From Candidatus Kaiserbacteria bacterium (lineage in GTDB: Bacteria; Patescibacteriota; Minisyncoccia; Phycocordibacterales; Phycocordibacteraceae): a DNA stretch of 64,000 bases. The notes below the pieces were generated by a model. The model saw only the letters and a program-made list of their open reading frames with translations, was not told the DNA's origin and made no database searches. The DNA lies in contig JACPGH010000007.1 of assembly GCA_016182485.1 (NCBI GenBank), positions 27,656-91,655 on the forward strand, written 5' to 3'. The translations under genes and the position numbers were made by a program. Shown here one piece after another: positions 27,301 through 55,632 of this stretch. Each line of letters opens with the position of its first letter. Position 1 is the first letter of the stretch.

Positions 27301-30300
27301 TGCAGGAACATATCCATCCTGTGTCGTGCCGCCGTAGCCAAAACGGAAGCTCGAAGATACTATCATCTGCGATCCAGTAAGAGATAGTCCCGATGCTCCT
27401 AACCCGAAAAATTCTACGGTGCTGTTTGGTTGAAACCGCATTCGTTCCGCAAGCGAACTGGTATTGGTATCCACCCCATAAAATACCAAAGACGTACCCA
27501 ATCCTCCCGGACTCCATGAGCCGTTTCCAGCTGCTTCCGCGATAATTCGCGCCCCGGTTTGATACGCCGAGCCGTCATATCCCATGAAATCTATCTGGCC
27601 CAATGTATCACTTGAACAATCCACTCCGCATGTTGCAGAGGGAGCACTTGCCGTCCCGCGGGCATGGATTAGTTGAAGCGCCGGACCTGCATCACTAGTA
27701 AGAAATTGACGAATCGTCGAGGTAGCACTCGAGTTACTGACAATGTCAAAGAGTGTACTTGGCCCCGCCGTCCCAATTCCTACCCTGCCATTCGCGAGCA
27801 CGGTCATCAAAGTCGAGGTCGAGGTGCCACCCGTCGTCGAGGCGATGGTGAAGAGCGGAGTATTCGCCGTCGTACCGGCTGAATTTGAAATCGAGAGGAG
27901 TGAATACGGAGAAGTAGTACCGATGCCTACTTTTCCGAGATCATTGATAGTCATCCTCTGAACAAGCGTATTGGTGGAATCTGCTCCGGTATTTACATAA
28001 AACTGCAATTCGGGGGAATTGTGCGACTCACCGCTTGATCCCACTATTTTAGCTTGGTTGGCAACGCCATTTCGCATATTGAACTGAAGTTCAGGAGCGC
28101 CCTGATTACTGTCGCCAGTAATGCGAATGGCTGTGACCCCTGAAGAGCTGTAAACTTCAAGTTCTTCTGCAGGAACTGTAGCAGTATTTAACCCACCTCC
28201 TACCCCCAATAAGCCGCCCGTGGTCAGAACCATCTTGCCGTTTGTACTTACTGCAGTCGAATCTTTGAAGAACCCGAGATGTCCGCTGTCTCCTGCGGAT
28301 ATATACCAGTCATCCCCCCCAACAGCCGCATTTGATGTTGAAAGATAGCCAGTTGTCGATATATTAGCTGCCGTAAGTGTTCCAGTAGCAGTGATATTGG
28401 CAGCTGTTATGTTTCCGGAGAAAAGGCCATTTCCGTGTACCGAGAATAGGCTTGCCGGACTCGTCGTCCCTATGCCGACGTTCCCGCCCAAGAACACCGC
28501 TGCAGGACCGGTCGACTTCTGCTCGATGGCGAGGGTTGGATATGCGGAGGTCGAGGAGGCAGAGAGCTGGCCCCAAGGGGTGGTGGAACCGATCCCGACA
28601 AGACCAGCGGCTGTGATGCGCATAAGCTCATATGCTCCTACAAAAGTGATAGGATCGGCGTTCGACAAAAGCCTATAGGCACTTCCTGTCCAGTTGAGAT
28701 TGTGATTTACATCATAGCCAATGTAGCCGCTTGTGGTAGTGAAATTCCCTCCAGAAACGACACCCGTTGAATTCACGGTCAATCTTGGGGTCCCTTCGGT
28801 AGCTACAACGAGAGCATTAGTGTTTGATCCTTGAGCTACATTGACATACATCCCGTGCGAGCCATTCGTAGTATTGGAGTTATAGAAGTTGGCTACATAA
28901 TTGCCTGGCTCACTTTTTGTAACATCGAGTGTGTAACCCGGCGCAGCCGTCCCGATTCCCACATTCCCATTCGCGAGAACGGTCATGAGGGTCGAAGTCG
29001 AGTTCCCTGCCGTAGTCGAAGCGATCGTGAACAGCGGTGTGTTCACCGTGGTGCCTGCCGAATTTGAAATCGAGAGGAGTGAATACGGAGAAGTAGTACC
29101 GATGCCGACGTTGCCTTCCACTATTAATCCATTTGTCGGCGCTACTGTCGTGTCATACGAAGCGCCGATTGTTGCTCCACCCGACACGCTCAGCTTAGAC
29201 CCTGGCGCCGTTTCCCCGATACCAAGGTTTCCGCCTGCAGTAAGTCTCATTTTTTCAGAATCATTGGTTACAAAAGCGAAGGGATGATTAGTGTATGTTC
29301 CTATGAAGGCGCCTGGGGTTCCAAGCTTGCCGGTGCCCACGCCTTCTCCCTGCCAGTAAGAGGTTACACCGCCCCCCGCAACGTCAACTTGAAATTGAGC
29401 ATACGATTTATCTGAGGTAGACAGGTTCCTAACTCTAACTGTCGGAAAAATCGTGCCATTGTCGCTTGTTGAATTTTTTACGACATCAAGCAATACACCC
29501 GGCGTCGTCGTCCCGATGCCGACGTTTCCAGTGCTTGAAATCCTGACCCGTTCTGCTACTGAAAGATTAGCCGGAGTTGTCCAAAACGATAAACCCGTAT
29601 CACCTTGTTCTGCTTGAAAATTGTCATGAACTGCAACAATTCTAGCGGCGTCATTTGTTACAACATTATTACCAACATCAACTTGGCGGAATCCAATATA
29701 TCCTCCCTGTTCGCTATATCCATTGGCCAGACGAGACTCAAGAATCATTATAGGCGCGTATGTCTGGGACGGAACCGTGGTCGGAACAATATCGAGTCGA
29801 GCTGACGGCGTCGTCGTCCCGATACCGATGTTGCCGGTGTTAAATATTGCGGCAGGATTTGTGCCATCGCCTACAACGTAAAGACGCGCGGGAATAGTGC
29901 TTGCAGTAGGCGTGTCCGATCCGATGATTTGAACATTTCCTCTACCAAGATTTAAACTACTTGCGTCGATGCCAGCATTGACAACAGCACTTACTGCTGC
30001 ATTGGTAAACTGCCAATAAGGAAGAGCGCCGCTTGAGGTAACGCGGACAGTATAATTATCTGACGTATTCGTGATAGCAAGTGGGGCAGAACCTGCTGCA
30101 CCGCTGACCACTTGAAGATTATTATTCGGACTCGTCGTCCCGATGCCGACGTTGTTGTTAGAAGAAAGGATCGTAAAGACGGCCGAGGAATCCTCTGCAG
30201 GTGCGTTTCCTTTGCTGATTACGAAGTTATCCGAAGCGCTGTACGGCAAGCCCAATCCCCACTTGACGGCTGAACTCCGCGAAAAATTCACAAAGGCACT

Positions 30301-33300
30301 CTGGCTGTCTCCCGTATTGAGGTTGATTCCTATGCTATTAGAATTCGGATTATTAATGGTGAAAATCGAAGTCGGCCCGGGTGTAAAATCAAATCGATCG
30401 CTGCCGCCGATTTGGACAGCCCCGTTTTGCATCACTAAGAGTCCCGCATTGCCGGCCGACAGTCCCCCCGCGAACGTCGAAGTCGCCGTCGTCGAGGTCG
30501 CGGTGAAATACTGTGAGACGGTTTCCCCAACCACCGAAAGTTTGGCATAGGGACTCGTCGTCCCGATACCGACGTTGCCAGAATTTGTAATACGCATTTG
30601 CTCCGTAGCAGAAGCTCCAGTTTCGAAAAGAATATTCCCGTAGGTAGCGCTGGCGCTCGTGTTGGTAATGTGTATGTTGCCGGTACTCGGATTATAAAGA
30701 TCAATGTACGCAATGTTATCAACTCCGAGAATCTTGCTTGTACTCAGCCCTAAATTGCCGGCGAGCGTATTGGAGGAACCGTTAAGCGCCATAACGTTTG
30801 TTGCGCCAACTCTCAGATTTAACACACTGTACCCGGCAGTTTTAAGGTATGATCCACTGTTTTCCGCGCTTATTTCCGTATACCACGTGGGGTCACTTGG
30901 TAAACTTGCTCTGACGTTCGTGCCCGCCACCAATCCACCAGTGAGCGTGGAAGTGCTTGTATTCGTAACGATAAGGTTCGTCAATGTCGACGTTCCCACT
31001 GCGAGCGTGCTTGTCCCCGTTATCGCACCACCAAAAAATCCTGTGCCACTAACATAACTATTGCCATGTACGCTTAACAGAGCCGCAGGACTCGTCGTCC
31101 CGATGCCGACGTTGCCCGTGTCGCTCTTGATGGCGATGTCTGTCCTCTGGATGCTGCCATCATCCGCCGAAATCCAGAAAGCATCGTCAATGATTCGGAG
31201 AATATGTTTCTTGCTGTTCGAGTTGTCTTGGAGGACGATACCCGGATTTGTGCCGCTGCCCGGGCCTATGTGCAGAGAGGTGGTGAGTGCCGTTGCAATG
31301 CCGCTTCCTGGGCTCGCCGTCCCGATGCCGACGTTGCCGGAAGTATCAATTCTCATTCTCTCTGTAGGTGTAAAACTATTGCCAGCTGTTAGCCCGCTGT
31401 TTGTGAAGAACCGAATATTCCCCAAATAATTTTCCACTTGCGAAGCCATCGTACTCCGGGCGACATAACTACTGCCATTCCACGACATTCCTCCGGCAAT
31501 ATTGCCTTGGCTGTCCGCAGTTGAAATGAGAAAGCCGCCACTGTTAGTCCCGTCGGAACCAAACCTTATTTGAGTATTTGAGCTTGCTGTGGCTATGTCC
31601 AGCTTATAGTTTGGCCCCGCCGTCCCGATGCCGACGTTGCCGGTGCTTGTTATTCGCATCCGCTCTGCAATCGTGGAATCGGTCTGCGTTGTCGAAAATT
31701 GCAGATACCCGGCGTTAGGGTTCGATTCCATTCTTCCTGCAATTGTGGCAAAGGCTAATGCACCTGTTGCTCCGCCACCAAAACCGGAGAATCGAAGTTG
31801 AGGACCTTTATCAATTGCTGCAGCATCGCTTGAACGTAAGACTAGGGTGCCAGCAGATTCGGCTGAATTAACCACTCCACTCGCTGCCTCAACCGTTAAT
31901 TTCCCACTTGGACTCGTCGTCCCGATGCCGACGTTGCCGCTCGACAAAGTAGTGCCAGTACCATCGATCCCCGTACCATAAATGAGATTGCCAATATTAA
32001 GAATATTTGATGAGGTGACCGCCGGAGCATCAATGTCGTAGCCTAGGATGATATTCCGCGAACCAGTCGTAAGCGCATCTCCTGCCTGATAGCCCAGGAG
32101 AATATTCCCCCCGCCGTAGGTGATGGCATTCCCCGCATTGTAACCAAGCGCTACGTTCCCTTCGGTATCATTGGAGGGGCCGGTAATCATATTAAGCAGA
32201 GCCTGATAGCCGATGGCGACTTGATTTGAAGAGCTCGTCGCTGTTTGAAGCGCACTCTGTCCCATTGCGATGTTGTAGCTACCCGTCGTATTGCTCAAGA
32301 GGACATTTACACCGATGCCGATGTTTGACGCTCCACTCGTATTCGCTGACATAGCACTTCTGCCGACAGCCGTATTGAAATCGCCCGTCACGATCGCGCC
32401 GCCAATCGCGTTACTACCGACAGCTGTATTATATGCGCCTGTGGAAATATGGTAGCCTGCTTGAAGTCCCAGACCAGTATTTTCGACACCCGTGGTATCG
32501 GCTAAGGCGTATGCTCCCAAAGCGGTAAGGCCATCTGTCGTGACATTGCTATTTAACGCTGATGTGCCTATAGCTACGTTATTGCTTGCAGTAGTAAGGG
32601 AGGCACCCGCCAAATAGCCCAAGACTGAATTATTGTTTCCTGTGGTCAAACTCTTCAAACCATAGCGTCCGATCGCGATATTAGAAGTTCCAGTGGTAAT
32701 ACTAGAAAGAACCAAGTCGCCGCCAATGCCAATATTGTAAGTTCCGGTCAAGGTCGTGTTTCCAGCCGGCGCACCGTTCGTGCCAATCATGAGATTGCCG
32801 GTACCGTAAGAGTCAATCCACCTGTTGTCTCCCATCTTTATTTGACCAACTGCTGTAGTTGTAACCGGAAGACGGAAGTTCCCAGTAATTTCTAATTGCT
32901 CCGCCGGCGTCGTCGTCCCGATGCCGACGTTGCCCGCGCTCGTTACTGTGAGATACGGCGTGACCGTATCACTCGAGGAGGCGATGCGGAAGAGGTCCGA
33001 GGTCTGGCCGCTCCAGCCCTGGACGAAGAGCGTCGAGGTGGCGGAGGTGAGCGAGGCGTCTTGTATATAGAGCGGCTGATTGAATTCAAAGCGCTTGCTC
33101 GACGTGGCGGCGTTCCAGGCCAGCTGAGCGTTCGGCGAACTGCTGCCGCGCGCGAACACTAGGTAGGCGCTCTCTTGATCTGCGGATGTGTTATCAGAAT
33201 TGACAGTGAGCGTCTCTGCCTGCACATTGCCGCCGACTATAGTGCCCACCACGGTGACCGCGCTCACTTCGTTGGCGTAGATTTTATCGAAGCGCACAGA

Positions 33301-36300
33301 CGGCGTGCCGATGTCCTGTGTGCCGTCAAGCGCTTCGATGTTGCCCGTGATGATGTTGGAGCCGATGCGGAGCGTCCCGCCAGCGGCGACGATGTCGTGA
33401 TTGCCCGTACCGGTGAAGGTGAGGCCCGATCCGGCGCCGTCTATCGTCACGCCGCCGTTCAAGAGCGACGCGCCGTTGACCGAGAACTTTGACGATGGGG
33501 TTGAAGTCCCTATGCCGACGTTGCCATCCGAGTCGATGATGAAAGGAGTGGAATCGGGAGAAGCAGTATCCTCTACGACAAAGGAAGGGAAACTATTATC
33601 GCCATTGGTCACGCTCAACTTCCCCCATGGAGTCGTTGTGCCAACACCGGCCGCCGATTTGCTTCGAGTGAGTGATAGAACCGTATTAACAACACCTCCC
33701 AGGGCCCGCTCGATATGCAGGTCTCCGCCGTTTGTATCCACTGCGGTCGTCGAGACGCGGAATCCCCAGGTCTGACGACCGCCGGTGAGCGAATCGCCCA
33801 AAGTAAGCACTTGATTAGAGCCAGCCGTGTCACCTCCCGAGGTAAGGATATTCAGCGCGCCAAGTGGAGCCTGTGTCCCTATTCCCACCCTCCCATTCGC
33901 GAGTACGGTCACGAGCGTGCTCGTCGAAGTGCCGGCAGTCGTAGACGCGATAGTGAAGAGCGGCGTGTCTACAGCCGTCGACGCAGAATTTGAGATCGAC
34001 AGGAGGGAGTAGGGAGAAGTCGTCCCGATGCCGACATTTCCTGCCGTATCGATGCGCATGCGCTCGAGATTGTTCGTGCCGAAGACGACAGGGTTATTCG
34101 AGGTAGCGCCGAAAGCGACTATGCCGCCCGCATCGGCCATATTTCCCTTGAACAATACGGAGTTGTTAAGTTGTAGCGCACCGAATAGATTCCCCGTCTG
34201 CGTCGTGCCATACACATCGACCGCGCCATAGGAGTTCCCGTCGTTTTGAATAGAGACTTGGGTCCTGCTATTGGGATCCGCCCCGGTTATCGCCACCTGC
34301 GTCTGCCCACTACCCGAACCGAGGATATCCAGCAATCTTGTGGGTACAGCTTTGCCGATACCGATCTTGCCGTTCGCGAGCACGGTCATGAGGGTCGAAG
34401 TCGAGGTGCCGCCGGTGGTCGAGGCGATGGTGAACAAGGGCGTGTTGACCGTTGTTTGTTGGCTGTTTGAAATTGAGAGAAGCGAATATGGAGAAGTGGT
34501 CCCGATACCGACGTTTACGGCGTTCGCGCCCGTGCCTCCCAGCACGAGAGAGTTGCTCGCGCCGACGATTGCGTTCGCGCCGATAGCCGTAGCGTTTGTC
34601 AAAGTACTCGAAGCCGCATCGGCCAAGTGGCCCAAGAACGTATTGTAGGTTCCTGTTGTGTTAGTCCAGCCTGCATAAGTCCCGAAGGCTGCGTTATTAC
34701 TACCAGTGGTGTTGTAGCGTAAAGAACGATATCCATAACCAGCGTTGAAGTTACCGGTCGTATTTACCGAGGCGGCTTGATAGCCCGCTACGGTGTTGTA
34801 ATCGCCAGTCGTGTTTGCATCTAACACAAGACTGCCAAGGGCCGTGTTGTAGCTGCCGGTCGTATTGGCGGTGAGAACCTGCAAACCGAGCGCCGTATTG
34901 TGCCTGCCCGTCGTATTTACTGGCAGAGTGTATCCGCCTATTGCCGTGTTGTAATCGCCCGTCGTGTTCGCATTGAGCGCGAGATTGCCGATCGCGGTGT
35001 TATATAGCCCGGTAGTGTTAGCGGTCAGCGTGTTCGCGCCGATGCCCGTGTTCTGCGTCCCGGTCATCGTGAAGTTGCCCGCGTCGAGGCCGAGGAATGT
35101 GTTGTCCGTGCCGTAATTGTGGAGGAAGCGCATCGAGTTGACGTATACGCCGCCGGCCGTCGCGGTCGAAGAGGCGAGGACGAGATTGCCGCTAAACGTA
35201 GTCCCGCCTGTGATAGTGAGCCGGCCGAAGGTGGCCTCCGCCGCCGCGACCGAGATGCCGTTCGTGAGCGTGCTCCTGTCGAAAGTCCCGCCGCCGAAGG
35301 TGCCGTTATTGATGGTCAGATTATCGAGCTTTTCGATTCTCGCCACTTGCTGAATGGTCGTGATATTGGTCGCGGTCTGTCGCGAGATTGGCGAGAGCAT
35401 GCCGCCGACGGTGGAGAGAATGTCGTTTTTGAGCGCATTGAGCGAGAGCGTAACGTAGTCCTGTGTGACGCCCTCGACGACGGTGGTGTAGAAGTTGGAG
35501 GCTGGTTGCTGGAGGCTGGTTACTGGAATGATGTAGGCGCTAGCCGGAGCGGAGGCGACAACCGGGGTGGAGCTTGCCGTGCCCTTCGTAGCCTTTGTCG
35601 CAGGCTTAGGCGAAGTAGGGGAGCTTGCCGTGCCCTTCGTAGCCTTTGTCGCAGGCTTAGGCGAAGTAGGGCTATATACGATGACGGGCGCTGGTGCGGG
35701 GTTCAAAAGATACGCGAGGCCGCTCGCCCCGTTAGAAATCAGATTTCTAACGGGGCTGGTCGCAGAGTCCCAAAAATTGTTGATCGCTCGGTAGGTCGTA
35801 AGCGCGACTTTTTCTCCGGCCGAGAGCTGGGAGATGACGGCGGCGACGGGAGTGCCTTCGCGGTTCATATTTTCAAGAAGAGCAGGACCCTTGCCGCGCG
35901 TCGCCTCGTACGCGCCGACGATGGTTCTGCCGACCGCGCTGAATATCTGCGGGTCATTCACCATCTCGCTGAACCTTCGAGGAGCGAGTGTGAGCGGCTG
36001 GGCGGCTGCGACACCCGCATACGCGAGGTCCCCGGTCCCGGTAACGAGGGCGAGATATCGGTCGGAAGCGAAGGCGGTCGCGCCGACGAAGCGGTGCGCG
36101 AGCGCGTACTCGGCGTCGAATACCGCCTGAGCGATTCTCGGCCCTGCTTCGCTCACGCTACGCAGGGCGAGCCCGGCTTTTTCTGGCGTTTTGATAGTAG
36201 CGGCGACAGTCGCCCGCGCGAGCAGATCGCCTGTATTCCCGACGAGCGCCACGGTGGCGCGCCCTGCTTCGTTAAAACTACGCAGGGCAAGAGCGCTTAC

Positions 36301-37398
36301 TTCAGGTGCGGCAGTGGCGGGTACATACGCGAGCGAGACGTCCGCCTGGATCGCCGCATGCGTGAGATCGATGACTGCATTGCCGAACGCGAGATTCACG
36401 CGATTGACGAAGGATGGGGAAGCGGCCAGCGCATCGCGCGCCGTCGCCGCGAAAGCGAGCGCTTCTCTCCCCGAGACATCGAGGAGCGATCGATACGTCG
36501 AAAATATTTTCTCGACCGCGCCGTACGAGTTCTCGCCAAGCGCGAGGTACTGCTCTTTGCCGACGCGCGCCACGTTTGCGGGCGCATGCAGGATAGCGCC
36601 TCGCATGCGCTCCGGAGAAGAGAGGAACGCGAATGTCTCGAGGATACTGTCCTCGAGAAGCTGGGCTTCGCTCGCAGACAATTCACGCGAAGTAATAGGA
36701 GAAGTGCCGCGCCCGCCGCTCGCCCCGTTAGAAATCAGATTTCTAACTGGGCGGGCATCAAGCTTCAGTACGAACAGTGGCGAAAGAGAGATGTCCTTAA
36801 TCTCTGACGTCGCATATGTCCTATGTGCATCCTCTGATTTGGTCGTATTCCTAAAGGACGCCGATTTACGCTGGTTCAGATCCGCGGATATCCTCTGATA
36901 TGGATCCGCGCTAATCTCCCGGAAGCCGAAAGCGACGACGCGCGCGAACGAACCGAGAGCGCGTGCTGCCTGCGGAATGATCGGGGTCTGCGCGGCGAAA
37001 GCCGCTCCGGTTACCACGAACGCGGCTACCGAAAGCGCGGCGAGTTGAGAACGCCATCCGCTAAACGCAGATGATCGCAGATCTAAATCCGCGGATATCC
37101 GCTGATTCAATTTGGCGGAAATCCGCTTATACATCTGCGGAATCCGCGCAGCATGCCGGTGTGAGCGATATTCAGCTTCGCGCGCGCGCGCGAGCGCGCG
37201 CGAATAATCAGACTTACGCGCTTCCTGCCGGTCAAGGAAGCGGATAAGAGACTCTCTGCCGACGAACCAGCTGTGGCCGATCTTTTTTCCGGAAATTTTC
37301 CCGCTGCGGACTAGACGCGCGAGGTAATCGGAAGTATATCCGGACAGCTCTCCAGCATCCTTTGTCGTGATCAGATTTCCGTTAAGAGAAGGATCCAT
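18340..37398 (-). CDS. Giant (6352 aa) membrane-anchored fibre/adhesin-like protein: N-terminal cytoplasmic HTH_17 (MerR/excisionase-type) domain, one TM helix, ~6000-aa extracellular region with YadA-head-like NTAIG/NTTG repeats and dozens of phage-tail-fibre-like GNVGIGTTSP repeats, two tandem peptidase-S74-like intramolecular chaperone domains, and C-terminal DUF5011-like Ig domains
   Basis: Uninterrupted 19,059-nt ORF. N-terminal motif ITTKDAGELSGYTSDYLARLVRSGKISGKKIGHSWFV. TM segment WRSQLAALSVAAFVVTGAAFAA. ggactcgtcgtcccgatgccgacgttgcc (GNVGIGTTSP on the minus strand) recurs throughout. CSASDERLKQDI…FYW…GLIAQQV…MILAIQEL matches the S74 autoproteolytic chaperone. PPIVTLNGEAAMQISEGQTFTDPGATATDETDGDLT…TDAAGN matches DUF5011. 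Confidence 0.8.
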   Translation of the reverse strand: MDPSLNGNLITTKDAGELSGYTSDYLARLVRSGKISGKKIGHSWFVGRESLIRFLDRQEARKSDYSRALARAREAEYRSHRHAARIPQMYKRISAKLNQRISADLDLRSSAFSGWRSQLAALSVAAFVVTGAAFAAQTPIIPQAARALGSFARVVAFGFREISADPYQRISADLNQRKSASFRNTTKSEDAHRTYATSEIKDISLSPLFVLKLDARPVRNLISNGASGGRGTSPITSRELSASEAQLLEDSILETFAFLSSPERMRGAILHAPANVARVGKEQYLALGENSYGAVEKIFSTYRSLLDVSGREALAFAATARDALAASPSFVNRVNLAFGNAVIDLTHAAIQADVSLAYVPATAAPEVSALALRSFNEAGRATVALVGNTGDLLARATVAATIKTPEKAGLALRSVSEAGPRIAQAVFDAEYALAHRFVGATAFASDRYLALVTGTGDLAYAGVAAAQPLTLAPRRFSEMVNDPQIFSAVGRTIVGAYEATRGKGPALLENMNREGTPVAAVISQLSAGEKVALTTYRAINNFWDSATSPVRNLISNGASGLAYLLNPAPAPVIVYSPTSPKPATKATKGTASSPTSPKPATKATKGTASSTPVVASAPASAYIIPVTSLQQPASNFYTTVVEGVTQDYVTLSLNALKNDILSTVGGMLSPISRQTATNITTIQQVARIEKLDNLTINNGTFGGGTFDRSTLTNGISVAAAEATFGRLTITGGTTFSGNLVLASSTATAGGVYVNSMRFLHNYGTDNTFLGLDAGNFTMTGTQNTGIGANTLTANTTGLYNTAIGNLALNANTTGDYNTAIGGYTLPVNTTGRHNTALGLQVLTANTTGSYNTALGSLVLDANTTGDYNTVAGYQAASVNTTGNFNAGYGYRSLRYNTTGSNNAAFGTYAGWTNTTGTYNTFLGHLADAASSTLTNATAIGANAIVGASNSLVLGGTGANAVNVGIGTTSPYSLLSISNSQQTTVNTPLFTIASTTGGTSTSTLMTVLANGKIGIGKAVPTRLLDILGSGSGQTQVAITGADPNSRTQVSIQNDGNSYGAVDVYGTTQTGNLFGALQLNNSVLFKGNMADAGGIVAFGATSNNPVVFGTNNLERMRIDTAGNVGIGTTSPYSLLSISNSASTAVDTPLFTIASTTAGTSTSTLVTVLANGRVGIGTQAPLGALNILTSGGDTAGSNQVLTLGDSLTGGRQTWGFRVSTTAVDTNGGDLHIERALGGVVNTVLSLTRSKSAAGVGTTTPWGKLSVTNGDNSFPSFVVEDTASPDSTPFIIDSDGNVGIGTSTPSSKFSVNGASLLNGGVTIDGAGSGLTFTGTGNHDIVAAGGTLRIGSNIITGNIEALDGTQDIGTPSVRFDKIYANEVSAVTVVGTIVGGNVQAETLTVNSDNTSADQESAYLVFARGSSSPNAQLAWNAATSSKRFEFNQPLYIQDASLTSATSTLFVQGWSGQTSDLFRIASSSDTVTPYLTVTSAGNVGIGTTTPAEQLEITGNFRLPVTTTAVGQIKMGDNRWIDSYGTGNLMIGTNGAPAGNTTLTGTYNIGIGGDLVLSSITTGTSNIAIGRYGLKSLTTGNNNSVLGYLAGASLTTASNNVAIGTSALNSNVTTDGLTALGAYALADTTGVENTGLGLQAGYHISTGAYNTAVGSNAIGGAIVTGDFNTAVGRSAMSANTSGASNIGIGVNVLLSNTTGSYNIAMGQSALQTATSSSNQVAIGYQALLNMITGPSNDTEGNVALGYNAGNAITYGGGNILLGYQAGDALTTGSRNIILGYDIDAPAVTSSNILNIGNLIYGTGIDGTGTTLSSGNVGIGTTSPSGKLTVEAASGVVNSAESAGTLVLRSSDAAAIDKGPQLRFSGFGGGATGALAFATIAGRMESNPNAGYLQFSTTQTDSTIAERMRITSTGNVGIGTAGPNYKLDIATASSNTQIRFGSDGTNSGGFLISTADSQGNIAGGMSWNGSSYVARSTMASQVENYLGNIRFFTNSGLTAGNSFTPTERMRIDTSGNVGIGTASPGSGIATALTTSLHIGPGSGTNPGIVLQDNSNSKKHILRIIDDAFWISADDGSIQRTDIAIKSDTGNVGIGTTSPAALLSVHGNSYVSGTGFFGGAITGTSTLAVGTSTLTNLIVTNTSTSTLTGGLVAGTNVRASLPSDPTWYTEISAENSGSYLKTAGYSVLNLRVGATNVMALNGSSNTLAGNLGLSTSKILGVDNIAYIDLYNPSTGNIHITNTSASATYGNILFETGASATEQMRITNSGNVGIGTTSPYAKLSVVGETVSQYFTATSTTATSTFAGGLSAGNAGLLVMQNGAVQIGGSDRFDFTPGPTSIFTINNPNSNSIGINLNTGDSQSAFVNFSRSSAVKWGLGLPYSASDNFVISKGNAPAEDSSAVFTILSSNNNVGIGTTSPNNNLQVVSGAAGSAPLAITNTSDNYTVRVTSSGALPYWQFTNAAVSAVVNAGIDASSLNLGRGNVQIIGSDTPTASTIPARLYVVGDGTNPAAIFNTGNIGIGTTTPSARLDIVPTTVPSQTYAPIMILESRLANGYSEQGGYIGFRQVDVGNNVVTNDAARIVAVHDNFQAEQGDTGLSFWTTPANLSVAERVRISSTGNVGIGTTTPGVLLDVVKNSTSDNGTIFPTVRVRNLSTSDKSYAQFQVDVAGGGVTSYWQGEGVGTGKLGTPGAFIGTYTNHPFAFVTNDSEKMRLTAGGNLGIGETAPGSKLSVSGGATIGASYDTTVAPTNGLIVEGNVGIGTTSPYSLLSISNSAGTTVNTPLFTIASTTAGNSTSTLMTVLANGNVGIGTAAPGYTLDVTKSEPGNYVANFYNSNTTNGSHGMYVNVAQGSNTNALVVATEGTPRLTVNSTGVVSGGNFTTTSGYIGYDVNHNLNWTGSAYRLLSNADPITFVGAYELMRITAAGLVGIGSTTPWGQLSASSTSAYPTLAIEQKSTGPAAVFLGGNVGIGTTSPASLFSVHGNGLFSGNITAANITATGTLTAANISTTGYLSTSNAAVGGDDWYISAGDSGHLGFFKDSTAVSTNGKMVLTTGGLLGVGGGLNTATVPAEELEVYSSSGVTAIRITGDSNQGAPELQFNMRNGVANQAKIVGSSGESHNSPELQFYVNTGADSTNTLVQRMTINDLGKVGIGTTSPYSLLSISNSAGTTANTPLFTIASTTGGTSTSTLMTVLANGRVGIGTAGPSTLFDIVSNSSATSTIRQFLTSDAGPALQLIHARGTASAPSATCGVDCSSDTLGQIDFMGYDGSAYQTGARIIAEAAGNGSWSPGGLGTSLVFYGVDTNTSSLAERMRFQPNSTVEFFGLGASGLSLTGSQMIVSSSFRFGYGGTTQDGYVPATGPDGWGMISSTGSFRVNLDADNDNTGQAFVIGHHQTDGDATNNVLMVVNDSGNVGIGTTTPNWLLQAAGTRPSFALSDSSAGANLKHWLFSSMGGNLYVGTSTDAYGTSTPAALTITNAGNVGIGKAIPNFLAEFSRSDTTSTRSGNISAEIAVVNDLPGTNYGPGAGIRFLAPTGGVTPTPSVGRILGTFGGNCYGNDCSLLVFQTTTGANVFSDAMIISGTEVSIGTPTINPAVPLEVVGSVAPSSVGAAGILQLYRGVNDGVSYPNIAEFALGRYQVGDTNPYSRLDINLKSSGSFDKTGDVTVMTLQANGNVGIGTTSPGALLSISGGPASILFNRPNNSHDGGLTLDSNGAALWKVGFIGGLTSNNFYIRDGKDDKTLLAFAAAGLDNAISVSATQVAIASTLYANGSGNVGIGTTSPAALTSIGGDLFVGASTAGGTNGKLGIGVANPVQIIHAVGSTPYIRLDDSASSPAGKIVYFGNNAGRIILGTDAGTSGRKFSIGYNAPDDSMFIADSTGNVGIGTTSPLNLLHIATSGDDMTFGGNAGANVAGNLYYSSGWKYIEAAGGAAIGINDNNRAGDIGFYTAPSGAVGSAATLSARMYIQEGGNVGIGTTSPDALLNIQNYGGGQGLNSQFIVNSGYAAGPGSISMSVVNSGNVFLGFDVDEVAAAMVARGTAASMLRELNGELLFTGDTGLTMNSAFTPTTRMTLDLSNGKFGIGSTTPWGQLSASSTSAYPTLAIEQKSTGPAAVFLGGNVGIGVTNPTSKLVVAGSTSASPNDYVAVFRTIDDAANRPIIRIENSAQSELARWDYNGYLTAPGFYATSNYVLSVAPGNIIIASQSGSTLQMGDVNGKAQKLSLYSNGVESLTIDTSGNVGIGTTSPWGVLSVTNAGSGPSFVVEDTESPDATPFTIDAGGSVGIGVSNPALSLQVNGAAGVPANSGTTATGRVRFSGTDNIAMDFGALNTSPWSAWIQVHDSTDQSVNYPLSLQTNGGNVGIGTTNPGATLQVGTNVLTVSATTSNVGIGTVSPLATLHVAGDIFQPYSQQIRSGLDNTSIYGYLELYNTSTGNLTLQAHSANNRSALINPNGGNVGIGTTSPWADLHVRDTAQSAGITDTPDSWLNALFERAWGSSSAAGIAIVGSSKSTGGNGVVYLGNSDDWDNTALSGGNDVFKLYVGATIPFITAQGTGSGDGKLSIATTSANQVLTLYQPANDVAIELSALAGPTYKWTMGMDYSDGGKFKIASSSALGTDDRFVIDGNGNVGIGTTSPESRLAVAQPSAISSTFDLATLDANTNVTNASGVTQRGLVLKMPTFTMNNAPATLTGARIETGSPGQFDQGGDVATVRGIEITSGNWLGNTGGFTWRGVQITTPTMRKDHSGGNAQESYGIDITTGATTGSGTNGINTGLRITGGSQSNAGIQRGLHINMADASHAALIVQTGNVGIGTTTPGVLLDVYKSSNLVSRFDSGSHNYLRLNRGAVTNNNELEFQTNGTTNWAMGLGDDSENKFYITTNNAVPSDGAKLTITTAGNVGIGTTSPVGHLEIANTTTNNTRLILRGTTGNGAVLINGTDLTTAQEWFKIDAFGRASFDEQAQSTAETPAVNISNLTGYGIFGSSYLGFTTNASEKMRITSGGNVGIGTTSPYSILSISNAAGTAVNTPLFTIASTTAGTSTSTLMTVLANGNVGIGAAAPGGKLSVAGNIFFGDESHYLSTDNSTYAMLSSNRDVQLSISGNPKLTVQASTGNVGIGTTTPTNTLTVSGTRVAGSLTSVAKIGTSGFGGQTGDAIGLLFSDTATGGYDFARIQTRAPGGSNMALDFGVWDGSTISNYMTIIKNGNVGIGTTSPQSKLHVTGGFSGITPLAGTVLTVENSGSNYLSLLAPNANEQALLFGSPNNVADGGVFYSPNGLSRGMSFRTGGNATQMVINSTGNVGIGTTTPLSILQTTTGGDNYFVMDNKNYATSEGIWRLHVGNTTDFFSIEQNTAAVRDFSTSYTPFFIGGVSGGYNQRVGIGTTTPGSKLSIAGGVSVGTNYGAAAPTNGMIIEGNVGIGTTSPGTLLSLGDTGANTINISATATSTFGSGIDIRTGCFAINGVCVGGGSGTGTVGSGTAGQFPYYAGTGTTLTATSSLYVATNERVGIASSTPFAKFAVENTSAALSFAVNDQAGDPTPFVIDDSGDVGIGTASPGGQSERFSIVTTAGSASAMTIYNGSDPNYIGEFGIDASTGNLIITSRLVGSGVQPIYMSASAIGLGTTTPATLLEVGGETANVTFDGYKNCTGFTSNGNGLLACSASDERLKQDISPLATASGLSAIDALRPVSFYWDPAAERSSQKQFGLIAQQVREVFPDLVQTSAPTSLTPDGTLSINYDGLAAPMILAIQELSTTSTRLAGRVGTLENEITALTGGYFGFSYEGSISARNEPVTAPIIANWVYASSTPASIVENLQKPAEGIEPSEIEVTGSFPHQAAGLFTVYGNVAADSFVASTSVWTSNLAVTNEGYINRLTAQEVSATSFVNTSTRALKTDINYMSASSTEAVLGKVRGLKVATYRYAAEAGSNPLRLGLIAEDARETAPEILSIDGNGVDLYKLATLTLAGVQTLAEKVDRAEVRLTSLEARLAALESGAVSSASGSPVSFSTTSLASAFNAFGAYIAKGIAQFGTLVADQFVAATNSAGTSSAGTVKIIAGNTVAEVQNAYVKPSTKIFVTFTASTTGSWYIAEKKDGSFRLVLESPQAGDTSFDYFLIQTEGQMATSTPESQISNSQFSISNSNTSTQWITVLGDNPYLIEVGGNFVDPGIDAGGAPVTTYINGVESEVGPGTIDTSSETTYIITYRVLGPNGSIMATRSVIVGNGSVVAGTTSQESQVTSQESSATPESEVISPDSDSQPPIVTLNGEAAMQISEGQTFTDPGATATDETDGDLTAKIATSGSADTATAGSYTLTYSATDAAGNTGSVSRLVTVIEPLSAATETSTTPQ
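18548..18570. repeat. Fifth copy of the REP palindrome (tgtgaaggtctgaccttcac), lying in frame inside the C-terminal DUF5011-like domain of the giant gene
   Basis: Identical 19-bp palindrome to the REPtron flanks. Encodes SEGQTFT. Confidence 0.7.
35567..35690. repeat. Perfect ~62-bp tandem duplication inside the giant gene (encodes SPTSPKPATKATKGTASS x2)
   Basis: ggagcttgccgtgcccttcgtagcctttgtcgcaggcttaggcgaagtaggg appears twice in succession. Confidence 0.85.
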
Positions 37399-37839
37399 GT
37401 CGGATAACCGAATTAACTAAATAATAGCTCGTCATTTCGGCAAAAAAATACCTACAAAAAAATTGTGTGGATAATGCGCTGACCTGCGCTTCAGATGAAC
37501 CGCTGAGACGGGGCCATTTTCGATCGAAACGTACGCATTTCTCACCCATTTTTTCAAAATCGTCCCGCAAAACCAGAAATCGGACGCTCCAAAGCGGAAT
37601 AGGCCACGCAAAGCCGGCCCAAGCGCATGTCAAAGCTCACGGAAACCTGTGTAAATTAGCTTTGAGAGCGGCATATTCGCGGTCCAGAGACGTCCATAAT
37701 TGATATTCTGAAATCACCCCAGACTTATGCGCGACATATACCGCTTATTTTTTAGATATTTCGGGCAAGCGACCTGGCTCACAACCGAATAGCAGTGATC
37801 GATGAATGGCGCTATTTACGCATTGTAAAAATAAATTCA

Positions 37840-37960
37840 GCCACTGCGCACAATATGAGATTGCATATATTGTGCGCACACATGCTTATCTCATAGAATA
37901 GATCTCCCTCAAGGAGATGAAATGCACAATATATATAGTATGTGACCTATACTTTCCCTT
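37840..37960. promoter_or_regulatory. AT-rich upstream region of the giant gene with operator-like inverted repeats (GCGCACAATAT / ATATTGTGCGC half-sites x3; hairpin atctccctcaaggagat)
   Basis: gcgcacaatatgagattgcatatattgtgcgc palindrome at 37845-37878, a further half-site gcacaatatatat at 37923-37935, and TATA-like hexamers. Confidence 0.4.
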
Positions 37961-38021
37961 TTTGGCACATTTTTCACTTTTATTTGTCAGGCAGTTTTAG
38001 ACGAGACAAGAAAGCATTGTA

Positions 38022-38795
38022 CTATCTGTCTATTTCATAGACTACTACCCCTGCCATGAGCGAGGCTCGTTTATCCGATTCTATATATTTATCGAAATAT
38101 CCAGTGCCAAGTATCGCCAGGGCCATAGTACACACGGCAACTAAAGCTCCAGACAGATATATCGCAGAGACCATCCTCTTTCCTCTGCTTTTAGGCTGAT
38201 CGTCTCCTTTATCCTCTGCTTCCTTCGGGAAATCCGGCAGCAGCTCCTTAGGAGGATGCCGGTATATGGCGCGGATTGGTATGTCTACCGATTCTTCGCT
38301 CTTCTCTCCGGGTCCTTCCACGCGTTCCGCGCGCTCTTCAGGCTCGAAATTGGCCTTCTCTATTTCGTTGGACGCTGTAATTGGGGTCGTAGCTATGCTT
38401 GCAACCTGCTCAAACCATGATTTCCAAGTCTCTGCCATATTCAATGGCGCAGATTCCGCGGAATTGTTCTCATCCGCGGATATCCGCTGATTTGAATCGG
38501 CGGTTATCAGCTCCTCCAGAGGAGCAGGCCCGTAGCGTGGAGATTCCCAGGCAGAAGAGACAAAAGATCGTGACTCATGGCTCTTTCCCCTCTTAGGCTC
38601 CTGTTTGGGAGTCTCCTCGCCGAAGCGATGATCGCGGACCGCAGTCTCAAGAACATACCAATTCCGACCTACTAGCCTGGCAGGCAGACGCCCTTCTCGG
38701 CACAGCTGCCCTATGTAATCCTTCGCATACCCGGTTACCTTCGCAGCTTGTTTTGACGATATGTACTTCTTGTCTTCGATAAGCAGCTCGTCCAT
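38022..38795 (-). CDS. Small paralogue of the giant protein's N-terminus: HTH_17-type DNA-binding domain + RISAD repeat region + C-terminal TM anchor (257 aa)
   Basis: KYISSKQAAKVTGYAKDYIGQLCREGRLPARLVGRNWYV aligns with the giant N-terminus. Shared palindromic DNA motif atccgcggatatccgctgat. C-terminal hydrophobic helix. Confidence 0.6.
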   Translation of the reverse strand: MDELLIEDKKYISSKQAAKVTGYAKDYIGQLCREGRLPARLVGRNWYVLETAVRDHRFGEETPKQEPKRGKSHESRSFVSSAWESPRYGPAPLEELITADSNQRISADENNSAESAPLNMAETWKSWFEQVASIATTPITASNEIEKANFEPEERAERVEGPGEKSEESVDIPIRAIYRHPPKELLPDFPKEAEDKGDDQPKSRGKRMVSAIYLSGALVAVCTMALAILGTGYFDKYIESDKRASLMAGVVVYEIDR

Positions 38796-38847
38796 GCCAG
38801 CAGTATAGCCATATCTCGGCTGGGATGGAAGGGAGATGTGTACAAAC

Positions 38848-41571: not shown

Positions 41572-41931
41572 TCAGGATACCTTATTGATGATTGCAGTAA
41601 GTATGAGCATGATTTCCCGCGCCTCGGATCTCAAGCGATGGCATTCCGCTATTCCATTTTCATTTGACTCTAGCAAGGAAAGCCAAAAGGCACTTTCCTT
41701 TGCTTCTTTTCGAGATATCCGCAATCTCATAACGAAGTCCTTCTTCCCGAGCGCCTCATTTCCTTCAATATAATTTGCCCCAATGGCTCCGGATGAGCGA
41801 ACTAATTGCTTAGCATCTTCATTGTTTTGTATGGTTTTCGGTAATCTGGAAACAAGCTTTCGTACGTCTTGAGCAAAAATCAGCGTCCTTTCTTCAAGAT
41901 TAAAACGTTTGCTCTTTTGAACATTGGTCAT
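41572..41931 (-). CDS. Four-helix-bundle protein (second paralogue; PF05635/TIGR02436 family)
   Basis: 119 aa. SSGAIGANYIEGNEA…KDFVMRLRISRKEAKESAFWL. Sits between the left and right arms of a family-2 element. Confidence 0.75.
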   Translation of the reverse strand: MTNVQKSKRFNLEERTLIFAQDVRKLVSRLPKTIQNNEDAKQLVRSSGAIGANYIEGNEALGKKDFVMRLRISRKEAKESAFWLSLLESNENGIAECHRLRSEAREIMLILTAIINKVS

Positions 41932-44636: not shown

Positions 44637-44936
44637 ATCGAGGCTGATACTATTTGCGCTTCTTCGATGCCTTTTTCTTTGCCTTCTTCTTTGCCATGGT
44701 GGTTGCAATTTAGAATAACGGCTGATATGTCGACCCGTCTGCGCATTCGCCAGCTGGCGAAAAATTTTCCGCAAACGTTTCTACTCACTAGTATCGCGCA
44801 TTAAAAATATTTTTTGGGTTAATTTTTGCGCGACCTGTGGATAAACTCGCGTCAAAAAATTTCTCCGCAAAAAAATTTTCTCTAAAAGTTTTGAAAATCT
44901 TCTTGTTTCTCCCGCTTGCCCAGTAGGAAATGCCTT

Positions 44937-47168: not shown

Positions 47169-47191
47169 CGTGTAAGGTATCCTTATATTGT

Positions 47192-49199: not shown

Positions 49200-49207
49200 T
49201 CATATAC

Positions 49208-52202: not shown

Positions 52203-52278
52203 AGGAGCTCTACGAGATGTTCCGATAGTAGCACAAAAGAAAGCGGCCCGACACGCGAGCGTGTCGGGCCGCAGCCCG

Positions 52279-52803: not shown

Positions 52804-52907
52804 GTTGTCCTCCCTTTCCGGCGTTTACTAACGCCATGAACGTCTGAATTAATTGTATACCAGAGTGTTGAAAATGTCAATAGCTCGTAAATTGGTCCTG
52901 ATTTGCA

Positions 52908-55548: not shown

Positions 55549-55632
55549 GATTTTGGGATTATATGATATAACCGGCCGATTTTCAACGAAGTTACTGCAT
55601 CTCCACTCTTGTGCTAGACTTCGATTACAGTA

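What the first reader, a model, noticed from the sequence alone, without database searches (positions are those of the whole stretch)
36700..38795. Duplicated HTH+TM module: a 257-aa stand-alone paralogue sits immediately upstream of the giant gene
Both proteins begin with the same HTH_17-type motif and an RISADL/QRISAD repeat region. Both share the DNA palindrome atccgcggatatccgctgat (giant gene 37088-37107; paralogue 38483-38502), and both contain a TM helix. The small protein could be a regulatory or anchoring partner (anti-sigma-like or ToxR-like logic), or the remnant of a module duplication that seeded the giant gene.
Basis: seen in the sequence. Interest (0 to 1): 0.6.

Follow-up and report, generated by a model that had tools for sequence, protein, structure and literature searches.

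The report
Paired membrane-anchored DNA-binding genes, giant fibre
Two adjacent genes of an ultra-small (Patescibacteria) bacterium each start with a related DNA-binding domain tethered to the membrane, one of them on a 6,352-residue surface fibre; the pair and a control region between them recur in over 70 species, suggesting the fibre protein regulates its own gene, while the DNA palindrome they share is only a small inserted repeat.

Summary
Both ORFs (small 38022-38795; giant 18340-37398, minus strand) begin with an HTH_17/excisionase-type winged helix, and both have one TM helix. Only the HTH is homologous (hhalign 97%, 49 columns).

The small protein is not a remnant. It is a strongly conserved ~250-aa tail-anchored family (1,589 clusters, 183 species). 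It lies after gatB in 84/84 loci and before a fibre-type HTH-TM gene in 74/84.

The shared "RISAD" palindrome does not show paralogy. It is a ~60-nt composite palindromic repeat, absent from 84 orthologous loci. In other Patescibacteria it is intergenic, or in frame inside GatB, IF-2, GAPDH and RecG.

The 0.3-0.9 kb spacer is a conserved DNA control region:
- a near-invariant element abuts the giant gene's ATG;
- a TTATCCACA box and two palindromes lie upstream;
- spacings change in ~10-bp steps, and no RNA fold was found.

The ATG-proximal element has decayed in the three species whose fibre gene lost its HTH.

Best reading (inferred, ~0.45): membrane-tethered HTH proteins act on this region, with the fibre protein autoregulating. 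This is a new variant of membrane-bound transcription factors.

The parts
38022..38795 (-). Small gene: a 257-aa tail-anchored HTH_17 protein. It belongs to a conserved ~250-aa family with motifs WESPRY, SWKAWFDR, VPIHAVY..PPxELLP and GSGYFDxYI.
38634..38765 (-). HTH_17 / excisionase-type domain of the small protein (aa 11-54). It is nearly invariant across 23 aligned species.
38100..38174 (-). C-terminal TM helix of the small protein (aa 208-232), followed by a conserved tail of about 25 aa.
18340..37398 (-). Giant gene, 6,352 aa: HTH_17, long helix, TM, repetitive fibre, Peptidase_S74 (two stretches), then Ig-like domains.
37225..37374 (-). HTH_17 winged helix of the giant protein (aa 9-58), with a beta-alpha-alpha-beta-beta fold and model pLDDT of 95-98.
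36988..37050 (-). Signal-anchor TM helix of the giant protein (aa ~117-137).
20224..20397 (-). Best-scoring Peptidase_S74 stretch (chaperone of endosialidase), giant aa ~5668-5725, far C-terminal to the TM helix.
18388..18600 (-). C-terminal Bact_surface_Ig-like domain (giant aa ~6267-6337).
38448..38508 (-). Composite palindromic repeat A, in frame in the small gene. It encodes ..ITADSNQRISADEN.. and has its core at 38472-38491.
37066..37128 (-). Composite palindromic repeat B, in frame in the giant gene before the TM helix. It encodes KRISAKLNQRISADLDLRSSA and has its core at 37087-37106.
36859..36918 (-). Composite palindromic repeat C, in frame in the giant gene after the TM helix. It encodes EISADPYQRISADLNQRKSAS and has its core at 36880-36899.
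36715..36752 (-). Second kind of in-frame palindrome, GCCCnGTTAGAAATCTGATTTCTAACGGGGCGAGCGGC, encoding VRNLISNGASG (copy 1).
35719..35756 (-). The same in-frame palindrome, copy 2.
37399..37441 (-). Near-invariant element abutting the giant gene's ATG: GCCGAAATGACGAGCTATTATTTAGTTAATTCGGTTATCCGAC. It contains a -10-like TATTAT (37421-37426) and the palindromic core TTCGGnTATCCGAC (37399-37412).
37466..37474 (-). TTATCCACA box (identical to the DnaA-box consensus), 67-69 or 76-80 nt before the ATG across species.
37644..37657 (-). Conserved block GAATTTTCACAGGTTAATTT (in the window: AATTTACACAGGTT).
37736..37765 (-). Window counterpart of the conserved block TTCGnATAnCCGAnATAnCTAA..ATACAAT. This is a second TCG-N6-CGA palindrome related to the ATG-proximal core, and it is only partly preserved in the window.
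37845..37880 (-). Inverted repeat TGTGCGCACAATAT-N10-ATATTGTGCGCA. It is the window copy of the conserved TCGCACAAT-N9-11-ATTGTGCGA palindrome.
38802..38845 (-). Conserved promoter-like element of the small gene: box TTGTACACA (38837-38845), spacer GCCGAGATATGGC (38808-38820) and TATACT (38802-38807) 6 nt before the ATG, which implies a leaderless mRNA.

Best explanation
The two ORFs are a conserved gene pair of Kaiserbacteria-like Patescibacteria (Paceibacteria).

Architecture. Each protein carries an N-terminal, cytoplasmic, excisionase/MerR-type winged HTH held at the membrane by one TM helix. The small protein is tail-anchored, with about 150 aa of largely disordered linker containing conserved short motifs, then a TM helix and a 25-aa external tail. 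The giant protein is type-II anchored: HTH, a ~60-residue helix, a TM helix, then about 6,200 aa of extracellular, tail-fibre-like repeats ending in S74 chaperone and Ig-like domains. Only the HTH is homologous between them.

Control region. The spacer between the genes is a DNA control region made of several conserved protein-binding-type sites kept in helical phase.

Inferred mechanism.
- The HTH of the fibre protein binds the palindromic element that abuts its own start codon, and a related upstream palindrome. The fibre protein would then be a membrane-tethered autoregulator of its own 19-kb gene.
- The small paralogue is a second membrane-tethered DNA-binding protein acting on the same region. 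The two promoters share a TT[AG]T[CG]CACA box and a GCCGARATA motif.

Shown versus inferred. Shown: architecture, homology, synteny, conservation and phasing of the sites, and co-loss of the ATG-proximal element with the fibre's HTH. Inferred: DNA binding, which protein binds which site, and the sign of regulation.

The shared RISAD palindrome is a separate matter. It is a ~60-nt composite palindromic (REP/MITE-like) repeat that entered the variable linkers of both genes in frame in this lineage only.
For: Family and synteny.
- The small protein has 1,589 cluster hits at 98% coverage, with an invariant HTH and its own motifs.
- Its relatives are encoded in 183 species genomes.
- gatB lies upstream in 84/84 loci, and a fibre-type HTH gene lies downstream on the same strand in 74/84.

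HTH identity.
- HTH_17 is hit by 23/23 small proteins and 24/25 giant N-termini.
- The AF2 model of the giant N-terminus has pLDDT 95-98 over aa 10-80, with a beta-alpha-alpha-beta-beta fold followed by a long helix and a TM helix.
- The best PDB fold matches are dsDNA-binding excisionase/MerR-type domains: TraN, Xis, RdfS, BldC, RacA and GlnR.
- The fibre-type HTH always sits at residue 1 of proteins up to 7,214 aa long.

Control region.
- The 43-nt element before the ATG is near-invariant in 67 species whose small proteins are only 34-48% identical.
- The TTATCCACA box is present (<=1 mismatch) in 60/61 spacers, always in the same orientation.
- Further blocks are conserved in about 20 species.
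- Spacings fall into classes about 10 bp apart.
- RNAalifold finds no pairs and Rfam finds nothing.

Link to the fibre's HTH.
- In L070, L073 and L084 the fibre orthologue has lost its HTH. There the 22 nt before the ATG carry at least 8 mismatches, against a mean of 1.4 in HTH-bearing loci.
- In those three loci the box, a -10-like hexamer and the small gene remain.
- Lineages without a fibre still keep a ~235-aa HTH-TM-stalk-base protein next to the small gene.
Against: - No binding has been shown. Nothing tells which HTH binds which site.
- Co-loss of the HTH and the ATG-proximal element rests on three loci. Their independence is inferred from different N-termini, not from a phylogeny.
- The spacing statistics ignore phylogenetic relatedness.
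- The small protein is kept next to gatB even where no fibre gene follows (L082), so it may have a more general role.
- The TTATCCACA box is also the DnaA-box consensus and also precedes secA, so at least that site may belong to another regulator.
- Individual Pfam scores are just below the gathering threshold.
- The AF2 model of the small protein is poor (pLDDT 56).
Confidence: 0.45

Rival explanations
1. The HTH domains are cytoplasmic anchors rather than gene regulators. They would tie the fibre base and the small protein to the chromosome non-specifically or at many sites (RacA-like), or to a protein partner (RodZ-like, where the HTH binds MreB). The conserved spacer would then be an ordinary promoter region served by other factors such as DnaA.
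For: - RacA is among the fold matches.
- The small protein's HTH is far more conserved than usual for a specific regulator, and it persists without an adjacent fibre gene.
- The TTATCCACA box equals the DnaA-box consensus and also precedes secA.
Against: - The ATG-proximal element decays specifically where the fibre's HTH is lost, while the box and the -10-like hexamer stay.
- No XRE/HTH_25 signature of RodZ was detected.
Confidence: 0.2
2. The two genes are functionally independent neighbours. The small protein would be a housekeeping membrane protein of the secA-obg-gatB cluster, and adjacency to the fibre gene would be inherited synteny. The shared HTH would reflect an old duplication with no present interaction.
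For: - gatB-small adjacency is seen in 84/84 loci, against 74/84 for the fibre-type gene.
- The small gene has its own promoter-like element with a leaderless geometry.
- L082 lacks any HTH gene downstream.
Against: - Where the fibre is missing, a fibre-type HTH-TM mini-protein is usually still kept right after the small gene (L026, L028, L035, L047).
- Both promoters share the box and the GCCGARATA motif.
Confidence: 0.15
3. The near-invariant element before the giant gene's ATG works as RNA. It would be a short Shine-Dalgarno-less 5' leader or mini-hairpin (UCGG-nUAU-CCGA) controlling translation initiation or membrane targeting of the huge mRNA, and would not be an operator.
For: - The element abuts the start codon and has no Shine-Dalgarno sequence.
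- The variable base n would fall in the loop.
- Two loci carry a both-sided change, TCGT..ACGA.
Against: - A both-sided change is equally expected for a DNA palindrome.
- There is no reason for an RNA leader to decay when the HTH is lost.
- A related palindrome recurs 290-440 nt upstream, with quantised spacing typical of DNA sites.
- No structure was found by RNAalifold or Rfam.
Confidence: 0.1
4. This is the first reader's alternative: the small ORF is a decaying remnant of the module duplication that seeded the giant gene, with the RISAD region and palindrome as relics of common descent.
For: The HTH domains are homologous.
Against: - The small protein is full-length and strongly conserved in 183 species, with invariant motifs outside the HTH.
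- RISAD repeats are absent from all orthologues.
- The same element is found inside unrelated genes elsewhere.
Confidence: 0.03

Closest known systems
ToxR/TcpP/CadC-type membrane-bound one-component transcription regulators (from general knowledge)
   Same: - The predicted topology matches: cytoplasmic N-terminal DNA-binding domain, single TM helix, extracytoplasmic C-terminus.
- A second small membrane protein is encoded alongside (compare ToxS/TcpH).
- The candidate target sites lie next to the regulated gene.
   Different: - The DNA-binding domain is HTH_17 (excisionase/MerR-like), not an OmpR/PhoB winged helix.
- The outside part is a 6,200-aa fibre or a 25-aa tail, not a sensor domain.
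- The partner here is a paralogue carrying its own HTH.
- DNA binding is untested.
MYRF, a membrane-bound transcription factor released by a phage-tailspike ICA/Peptidase_S74 domain (PMC3742443)
   Same: One polypeptide combines a DNA-binding domain, a TM helix and an S74 intramolecular-chaperone domain that acts on trimers.
   Different: - In MYRF the S74 domain lies between the DNA-binding domain and the TM helix, on the cytoplasmic side, and its cleavage frees the DNA-binding domain.
- Here S74 is about 5,500 residues beyond the TM helix, on the outside, as in phage fibres. It cannot free the HTH.
- The DNA-binding domain here is HTH_17, not Ndt80-type.
Excisionase/MerR-like small DNA binders: TraN of pIP501, phage and ICE Xis/RdfS, BldC, RacA (fold matches)
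   Same: - The beta-alpha-alpha-beta-beta winged-helix fold is the same.
- TraN shares 30% identity with rmsd 2.0 A over 54 columns.
- Tandem duplication of the domain occurs in TraN and in some fibre orthologues.
   Different: Those proteins are soluble. None is fused to a TM helix or to a surface fibre.
RodZ (from general knowledge)
   Same: It has an N-terminal cytoplasmic HTH, a single TM helix and an outside domain. It shows that such an HTH need not bind DNA.
   Different: - RodZ has an XRE-type HTH, which was not detected here.
- It has a periplasmic domain of about 150 aa and no paralogous pair.
Rickettsia palindromic elements and intragenic ERIC/RU repeats (PMC10969869, PMC2759123). 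This comparison applies to the RISAD palindrome only.
   Same: They are short palindromic repeats found between genes and also inserted in frame in unrelated housekeeping genes, where they add a peptide to the product.
   Different: - The element here is about 60 nt, built from 10-11-nt ATCNGCG units around a perfect 20-nt palindrome.
- It reads (Q/P)RISAD on both strands.
- It occurs in Patescibacteria.
- Mobility, target-site duplications and a transposase were not examined.

Membership tests
HTH_17 / excisionase-family DNA-binding domain (PF12728, TIGR01764) | The profile match reaches the curated threshold. | tested here: inconclusive
   Scores are 26.1 bits (small) and 22.8-25.4 bits (giant), against a gathering score of 27. 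TIGR01764 gives 21 bits against a cut-off of 28.8. However, 23/23 small proteins and 24/25 fibre N-termini match at E<=0.01.
HTH_17 / excisionase-family DNA-binding domain (PF12728, TIGR01764) | A beta-alpha-alpha-beta-beta winged-helix fold. | tested here: met
   The AF2 model of the giant N-terminus has pLDDT 95-98 for aa 10-80, with E9-11, H12-19, H23-32, E37-40 and E43-47. The Foldseek top hits are TraN, Xis, RdfS, BldC and RacA. The model of the small protein was too poor to test.
HTH_17 / excisionase-family DNA-binding domain (PF12728, TIGR01764) | Binds double-stranded DNA. | not testable with these tools
   There is indirect evidence only: conserved palindromic sites, and their decay when the HTH is lost.
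ToxR/CadC-like membrane-bound transcription regulators | Cytoplasmic N-terminal DNA-binding domain, single TM helix, extracytoplasmic C-terminus. | tested here: met
   This is met by prediction only: hydropathy and the AF2 TM helix. The C-terminal S74 and Ig-like domains imply an outside location.
ToxR/CadC-like membrane-bound transcription regulators | An OmpR/PhoB-type (Trans_reg_C) winged helix. | tested here: not met
   Only HTH_17 and AbiEi_4 are found.
MYRF-type self-cleaving membrane-bound factors | The S74/ICA domain lies between the DNA-binding domain and the TM helix, so that cleavage releases the DNA-binding domain. | tested here: not met
   The TM helix is at aa ~117-137 and S74 at aa ~5668-5725.
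RodZ | An XRE-type HTH (HTH_25 or similar) followed by a TM helix and a periplasmic domain. | tested here: not met
   There is no XRE-family hit. The small protein has only about 25 aa outside the membrane.
Anti-sigma factors | An N-terminal anti-sigma domain (zf-HC2, RskA or similar), with a sigma-factor gene nearby. | tested here: not met
   No such domain is present in either protein, and no sigma-factor gene is among the neighbours scanned.
Phage tail-fibre / endosialidase-like proteins with an intramolecular chaperone | A Peptidase_S74 domain above threshold near the C-terminus of a repetitive fibre. | tested here: met
   PF13884 scores 84.8 bits (gathering score 22) with two stretches. 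PF16403 Ig-like scores 103 bits. Self-cleavage was not testable.
REP/MITE-like palindromic repeats (for the RISAD element) | A palindromic unit present in many copies, between genes and within genes, across genomes. | tested here: met
   86 metagenome contigs carry the exact core. Most copies are intergenic. In-frame copies occur in GatB, IF-2, GAPDH and RecG.
REP/MITE-like palindromic repeats (for the RISAD element) | Evidence of mobility: target-site duplication, presence/absence polymorphism, or an associated transposase. | not tested
   Only absence from 84 orthologous loci is shown. Same-species contigs are identical and merely break at the repeats.
DnaA box / replication origin (for TTATCCACA and the spacer) | A 9-mer matching TTATCCACA. 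| tested here: met
   Exact in 47/61 spacers and within one mismatch in 60/61.
DnaA box / replication origin (for TTATCCACA and the spacer) | A cluster of boxes at a GC-skew and gene-orientation switch. | tested here: not met
   There are one or two boxes per spacer. Genes on both sides are co-directional, and GC skew stays negative across the window.

The most novel reading that the evidence does not exclude
The giant fibre protein may be a self-counting, membrane-tethered autoregulator.

- Its N-terminal HTH emerges first from the ribosome while RNA polymerase is still near the 5' end of the 19-kb gene. It binds, in cis, the palindrome that abuts its own start codon.
- After the TM helix inserts, the gene is pinned to the membrane and re-initiation is blocked.
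- The state of the 6,200-aa extracellular fibre (assembly, tension, contact with a host cell) could then be relayed inward to this HTH. The small tail-anchored paralogue would act as competitor or co-repressor on the phased upstream sites.

This would be a direct physical coupling between a surface fibre and its own promoter, and it has no described precedent.
Probability: 0.15. Interest if true: 0.85.

Novelty: new variant of a known kind. Interest (0 to 1): 0.6.

Why it matters
Patescibacteria live attached to other cells, but how they build and control their attachment structures is largely unknown.

- **A testable regulatory circuit.** A DNA-binding domain at the start of giant surface-fibre proteins recurs at the N-terminus of hundreds of related proteins. 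It comes with a dedicated paralogue and an elaborate, phase-locked control region. Testing needs only cloned domains and short DNA fragments, not a cultured organism. If the fibre protein does bind its own gene, the class of membrane-bound transcription factors extends to a protein whose outside part is a 6,000-residue fibre.
- **Protein evolution.** The RISAD element shows that small palindromic repeats are tolerated in frame in essential proteins of these reduced genomes.
- **A practical warning.** Such repeats create false signals of homology and break assemblies.

Tried and rejected
- **Replication origin.** I considered this because of the perfect DnaA-box 9-mer. I rejected it: there are one or two boxes per spacer, the flanking genes are co-directional, and GC skew shows no sign change.
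- **Structured RNA in the spacer.** Rfam found nothing meaningful in the window spacer or in 11 related loci. RNAalifold found 0 pairs on the block2-block3 segment.
- **TTATCCACA as a general promoter element.** Only 6 relaxed matches occur in 64 kb, and three of them sit at the secA, small-gene and giant-gene promoters.
- **RISAD core as extra operators.** The RISAD palindrome core (CGGATATCCG) equals the core of the ATG-proximal element when n=A. I now regard this as probably coincidental, because the same 20-mer belongs to a repeat family found in many unrelated contexts.
- **AF2 of the small protein.** The model was too poor (pLDDT 56) for fold searching.
- **PDB sequence searches.** These gave nothing significant.
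- **Word-indexed search with the fibre N-terminus profile.** It saturated and returned only 18 fragments.
- **Viral-contig scan for the second palindrome.** No hits.
- **Same-species contigs.** They showed no polymorphism and only break at the repeats.
- **Literature.** Five full-text searches found no description of this gene pair or of the RISAD element.
- **NCBIfam.** It has no model for either family.

Full report
**1. What is there**

On the minus strand, a 257-aa ORF (38022-38795) lies 622 nt upstream of a 6,352-aa ORF (18340-37398).
- Both begin with a Pfam HTH_17 match: 26.1 bits for the small protein and 22.8-25.4 bits for the giant, against a gathering score of 27.
- BLASTP of the N-termini gives 26% identity over 137 aa, E=1e-10.
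- Hydropathy gives one TM helix in each: aa 208-232 of 257, and aa ~117-137 of 6,352.
- The 20-mer ATCAGCGGATATCCGCGGAT is exact at 37087-37106 and 38472-38491, and has one mismatch at 36880-36899. Shuffles expect 0.01 matches.

**2. The small protein is a conserved family, not a remnant**

It has 1,589 cluster-level relatives, nearly all about 240-275 aa and covering 98% of the query. Sources name them Kaiserbacteria, Paceibacterota or Patescibacteria.

An alignment of 23 members shows an almost invariant HTH (MDEILIEEKKYVSSKQAAKxTGYAKDYIGQLCREGRVPARLVGRSWYVLE). It also shows further invariant motifs (WESPRY, SWKAWFDR, VPIHAVY..PPxELLP), a C-terminal TM helix and a conserved 25-aa tail. No NCBIfam model exists for the family.

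The AF2 model is poor (pLDDT 56) apart from the TM helix and one short helix. This is consistent with a largely disordered linker.

**3. The pair is syntenic**

Four long contigs from other species show the same gene order: Wzy_C-TPR / murB / secA / obg / gatB / small gene / 0.4-0.8 kb gap / large HTH_17 protein with S74 and Ig-like domains / GAPDH / rpiB / rpe / tkt.

A scan of one genome per species found relatives in 183 species. In the 84 loci examined:
- gatB is immediately upstream in 84;
- a fibre-type HTH N-terminus (50-77% identical over 74 aa) follows on the same strand in 74;
- most of the remainder are contig ends.

The downstream ORF usually runs off the 6-kb flank. An exhaustive phmmer search finds 714 cluster representatives at E<=1e-10. 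The match always starts at residue 1 (or forms a tandem pair), in proteins up to 7,214 aa long.

In one lineage (L026, L028, L035, L047) the fibre is replaced by a ~235-aa protein. This consists of the fibre-type HTH, a TM helix and the conserved post-TM segment (AIxADVxLAYG).

**4. What is homologous**

A profile-profile comparison of the two families aligns only the HTH: 49 columns, probability 97%, E=4.9e-11. HTH_17 is hit by 23/23 small proteins and 24/25 fibre N-termini.

The AF2 model of the fibre N-terminus is confident (pLDDT 95-98 for aa 10-80). It shows a beta-alpha-alpha-beta-beta fold, then a helix spanning aa 48-108 that leads to the TM helix. Its best PDB matches are dsDNA-binding excisionase/MerR-type domains: TraN (30% identity, rmsd 2.0 A), Pukovnik Xis, RdfS, BldC, RacA and GlnR.

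So the duplicated unit is the HTH. The TM helices are at non-equivalent positions.

**5. The RISAD repeats and the palindrome**

None of the 22 other small proteins, and none of the 24 other fibre N-termini aligned, has RISAD repeats. In the window they occupy variable linker positions.

Each window copy is a ~60-nt composite palindrome built from ATCNGCG/CGCNGAT units around the 20-mer: 38448-38508, 37066-37128 and 36859-36918. Clusters of such units occur nowhere else in the 64 kb, and nowhere in 907 kb of 84 orthologous loci.

An exact-match scan of metagenome contigs found the core in 86 contigs. It usually appears as the perfect palindrome ATCCGCGGATATCCGCGGAT within the same composite architecture, and it is mostly intergenic.

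In several contigs the element lies in frame inside GatB (three times), IF-2, GAPDH and RecG. The GatB, GAPDH and RecG proteins are 53-65% identical to the window's, so these contigs come from related Patescibacteria. Twice it flanks an inserted ORF with a GxxExxY-like sequence, which I recognise from memory as the PD-(D/E)XK nuclease type and did not test. Because the core is a palindrome, it reads (Q/P)RISAD on either strand.

A second, unrelated 38-nt palindrome encoding VRNLISNGASG is present twice in the giant gene. Same-species assemblies break exactly at these repeats.

The shared palindrome is therefore an inserted repeat, comparable to the Rickettsia palindromic elements (PMC10969869). 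It is not evidence of common descent. Why three copies sit in these two genes is unexplained.

**6. The spacer is a conserved DNA control region**

Most of the spacer is not alignable across all species. The last 43 nt before the giant gene's ATG are the exception (GCCGaAATagTAAGTTATTATTTAGTTAATTCGGnTATCCGAC). They are near-invariant in 67 species.

The element contains a -10-like TATTAT and a 12-bp palindrome, TCGGnTATCCGA. There is no Shine-Dalgarno sequence.

A TTATCCACA box lies 67-69 nt (32 loci) or 76-80 nt (24 loci) before the ATG. The same 9-mer, in the same orientation, precedes a clear TTACAC-N18-GATAAT promoter upstream of secA. A variant of it (TTGTGCACA) precedes the small gene. 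The small gene's TATACT hexamer sits 6-7 nt before its ATG, which implies a leaderless mRNA.

Both HTH-gene promoters share GCCGARATA just upstream of the -10.

In about 20 species three more blocks are conserved:
- a second TCG-N6-CGA palindrome followed by ATAnCTAA..ATACAAT;
- GAATTTTCACAGGTTAATTT.

The sequence between blocks is not conserved, but its length is quantised: 114-115 or 124-126 nt, and 47/57/64/75/85/95 nt. The best-fitting periods are 9.5-10.75 nt. RNAalifold finds no pairs, and Rfam finds nothing.

Together these points indicate protein-binding sites held on one face of the DNA helix. The spacing statistics are not corrected for relatedness.

**7. Link between the ATG-proximal element and the fibre's HTH**

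In L070, L073 and L084 the fibre orthologue is recognisable by its post-TM motifs but has lost the HTH. In L070 and L084 the MDxL.. start is retained. In all three, the 22 nt before the ATG carry 8-13 mismatches, against a mean of 1.4 in 67 HTH-bearing loci. The box, a TATCAT hexamer and the intact small gene remain.

This is the main argument that the element is the target of the fibre protein's own HTH. It rests on three cases.

**8. Mechanism**

Shown: two membrane-tethered HTH_17 proteins are encoded side by side. A conserved, phased set of DNA sites lies between them. One site co-varies with one of the HTHs.

Inferred: the fibre protein is a membrane-bound autoregulator, and the small paralogue acts on the same region.

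Rivals are:
- anchoring rather than regulation (RacA- or RodZ-like);
- functional independence of the two genes;
- an RNA role for the element.

The 'remnant' reading is rejected.

**9. Comparison and novelty**

The topology resembles ToxR/CadC, but the HTH family differs (HTH_17, not OmpR-type), and so does the outside part.

MYRF combines a DNA-binding domain, a TM helix and an S74 domain (PMC3742443). There the S74 domain lies between the DNA-binding domain and the TM helix and releases the factor. Here it is about 5,500 residues beyond the TM helix, as in phage fibres.

Five full-text searches found no description of this pair. I rate it a new variant of a known kind (membrane-bound transcription factors), with moderate-to-high interest.

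Noticed in passing
window 44700-44850 (minus); L005 4677-4790 and equivalents: Upstream of secA there is a conserved promoter: GTTATCCACAC, then about 25 nt, then TTACAC-N18-GATAAT. It is followed by a conserved leader, TAGAAACGTTTGCGCATGAAA..TTTCGCGCGCAGACGGGTCGAC, in dozens of species. This could be a regulatory leader, and secA may share a regulator with the two HTH genes.
   Followed up: partly
L098 3255, L167 3416, L110 909, L155 6276, L137 1078, L109 8556: The RISAD-type composite palindrome sits in frame in GatB, IF-2, GAPDH and RecG of other Patescibacteria. In L110 and L109 it flanks an inserted ORF with a GxxExxY-like sequence (PD-(D/E)XK-like by recollection, not tested) inside the host gene. 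This points to a family of in-frame insertions in essential genes.
   Followed up: partly
window 41572-41931 (minus): A 23S_rRNA_IVP (four-helix-bundle) gene lies between secA and obg in this genome. It is absent at that position in L005, L006 and L008, and L007 has a Trp_repressor gene there instead. The slot appears to be variable, with mobile-like content.
   Followed up: no
window 44937-63451: Upstream of secA lies a conserved Wzy_C+TPR protein (O-antigen-ligase-like) and then a glycan cluster: GDP-mannose dehydratase, epimerases, a flippase, glycosyltransferases and a cytidylyltransferase. The fibre has Ser/Thr/Pro-rich repeats (TSPKPATKATKGTASS, twice). The fibre may therefore be O-glycosylated.
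   Followed up: no
L008 11169-11561; L014, L016, L032, L037, L059; P0157 (7,214 aa): Some fibre orthologues carry two tandem copies of the HTH at the N-terminus, and one protein in the exhaustive search matches in three stretches. Duplication of this domain is therefore recurrent in the family.
   Followed up: partly
L001 and L002 end at window 36718; L004 ends at window 37094: Independent assemblies of the same species, 100% identical to the window, terminate exactly inside the two kinds of in-frame palindrome. These repeats break short-read assemblies.
   Followed up: yes
window 32000-38000: There is a local reversal of GC skew (+0.06, against about -0.05 elsewhere) over the 5' part of the giant gene. 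Long spurious ORFs lie on the opposite strand there, for example 35119-36807 (+), 562 aa.
   Followed up: no
window 39808-40008 (minus), GatB aa ~137-175: The window's own GatB has a 17-residue stretch (VAGEAGDPERSERTAGR) at the same site where other Patescibacteria carry the RISAD insertion. It may be an old, degenerate insertion.
   Followed up: no
L033 7071, L046 7075, L049 7079, L074, L080, L034 (spacer, 290-440 nt before the ATG): A second copy of the TTCGGnTATCCG-type palindrome lies far upstream of the first. The motif is about ten times denser in the spacers than in the rest of the loci. This arrangement is compatible with paired operators.
   Followed up: partly
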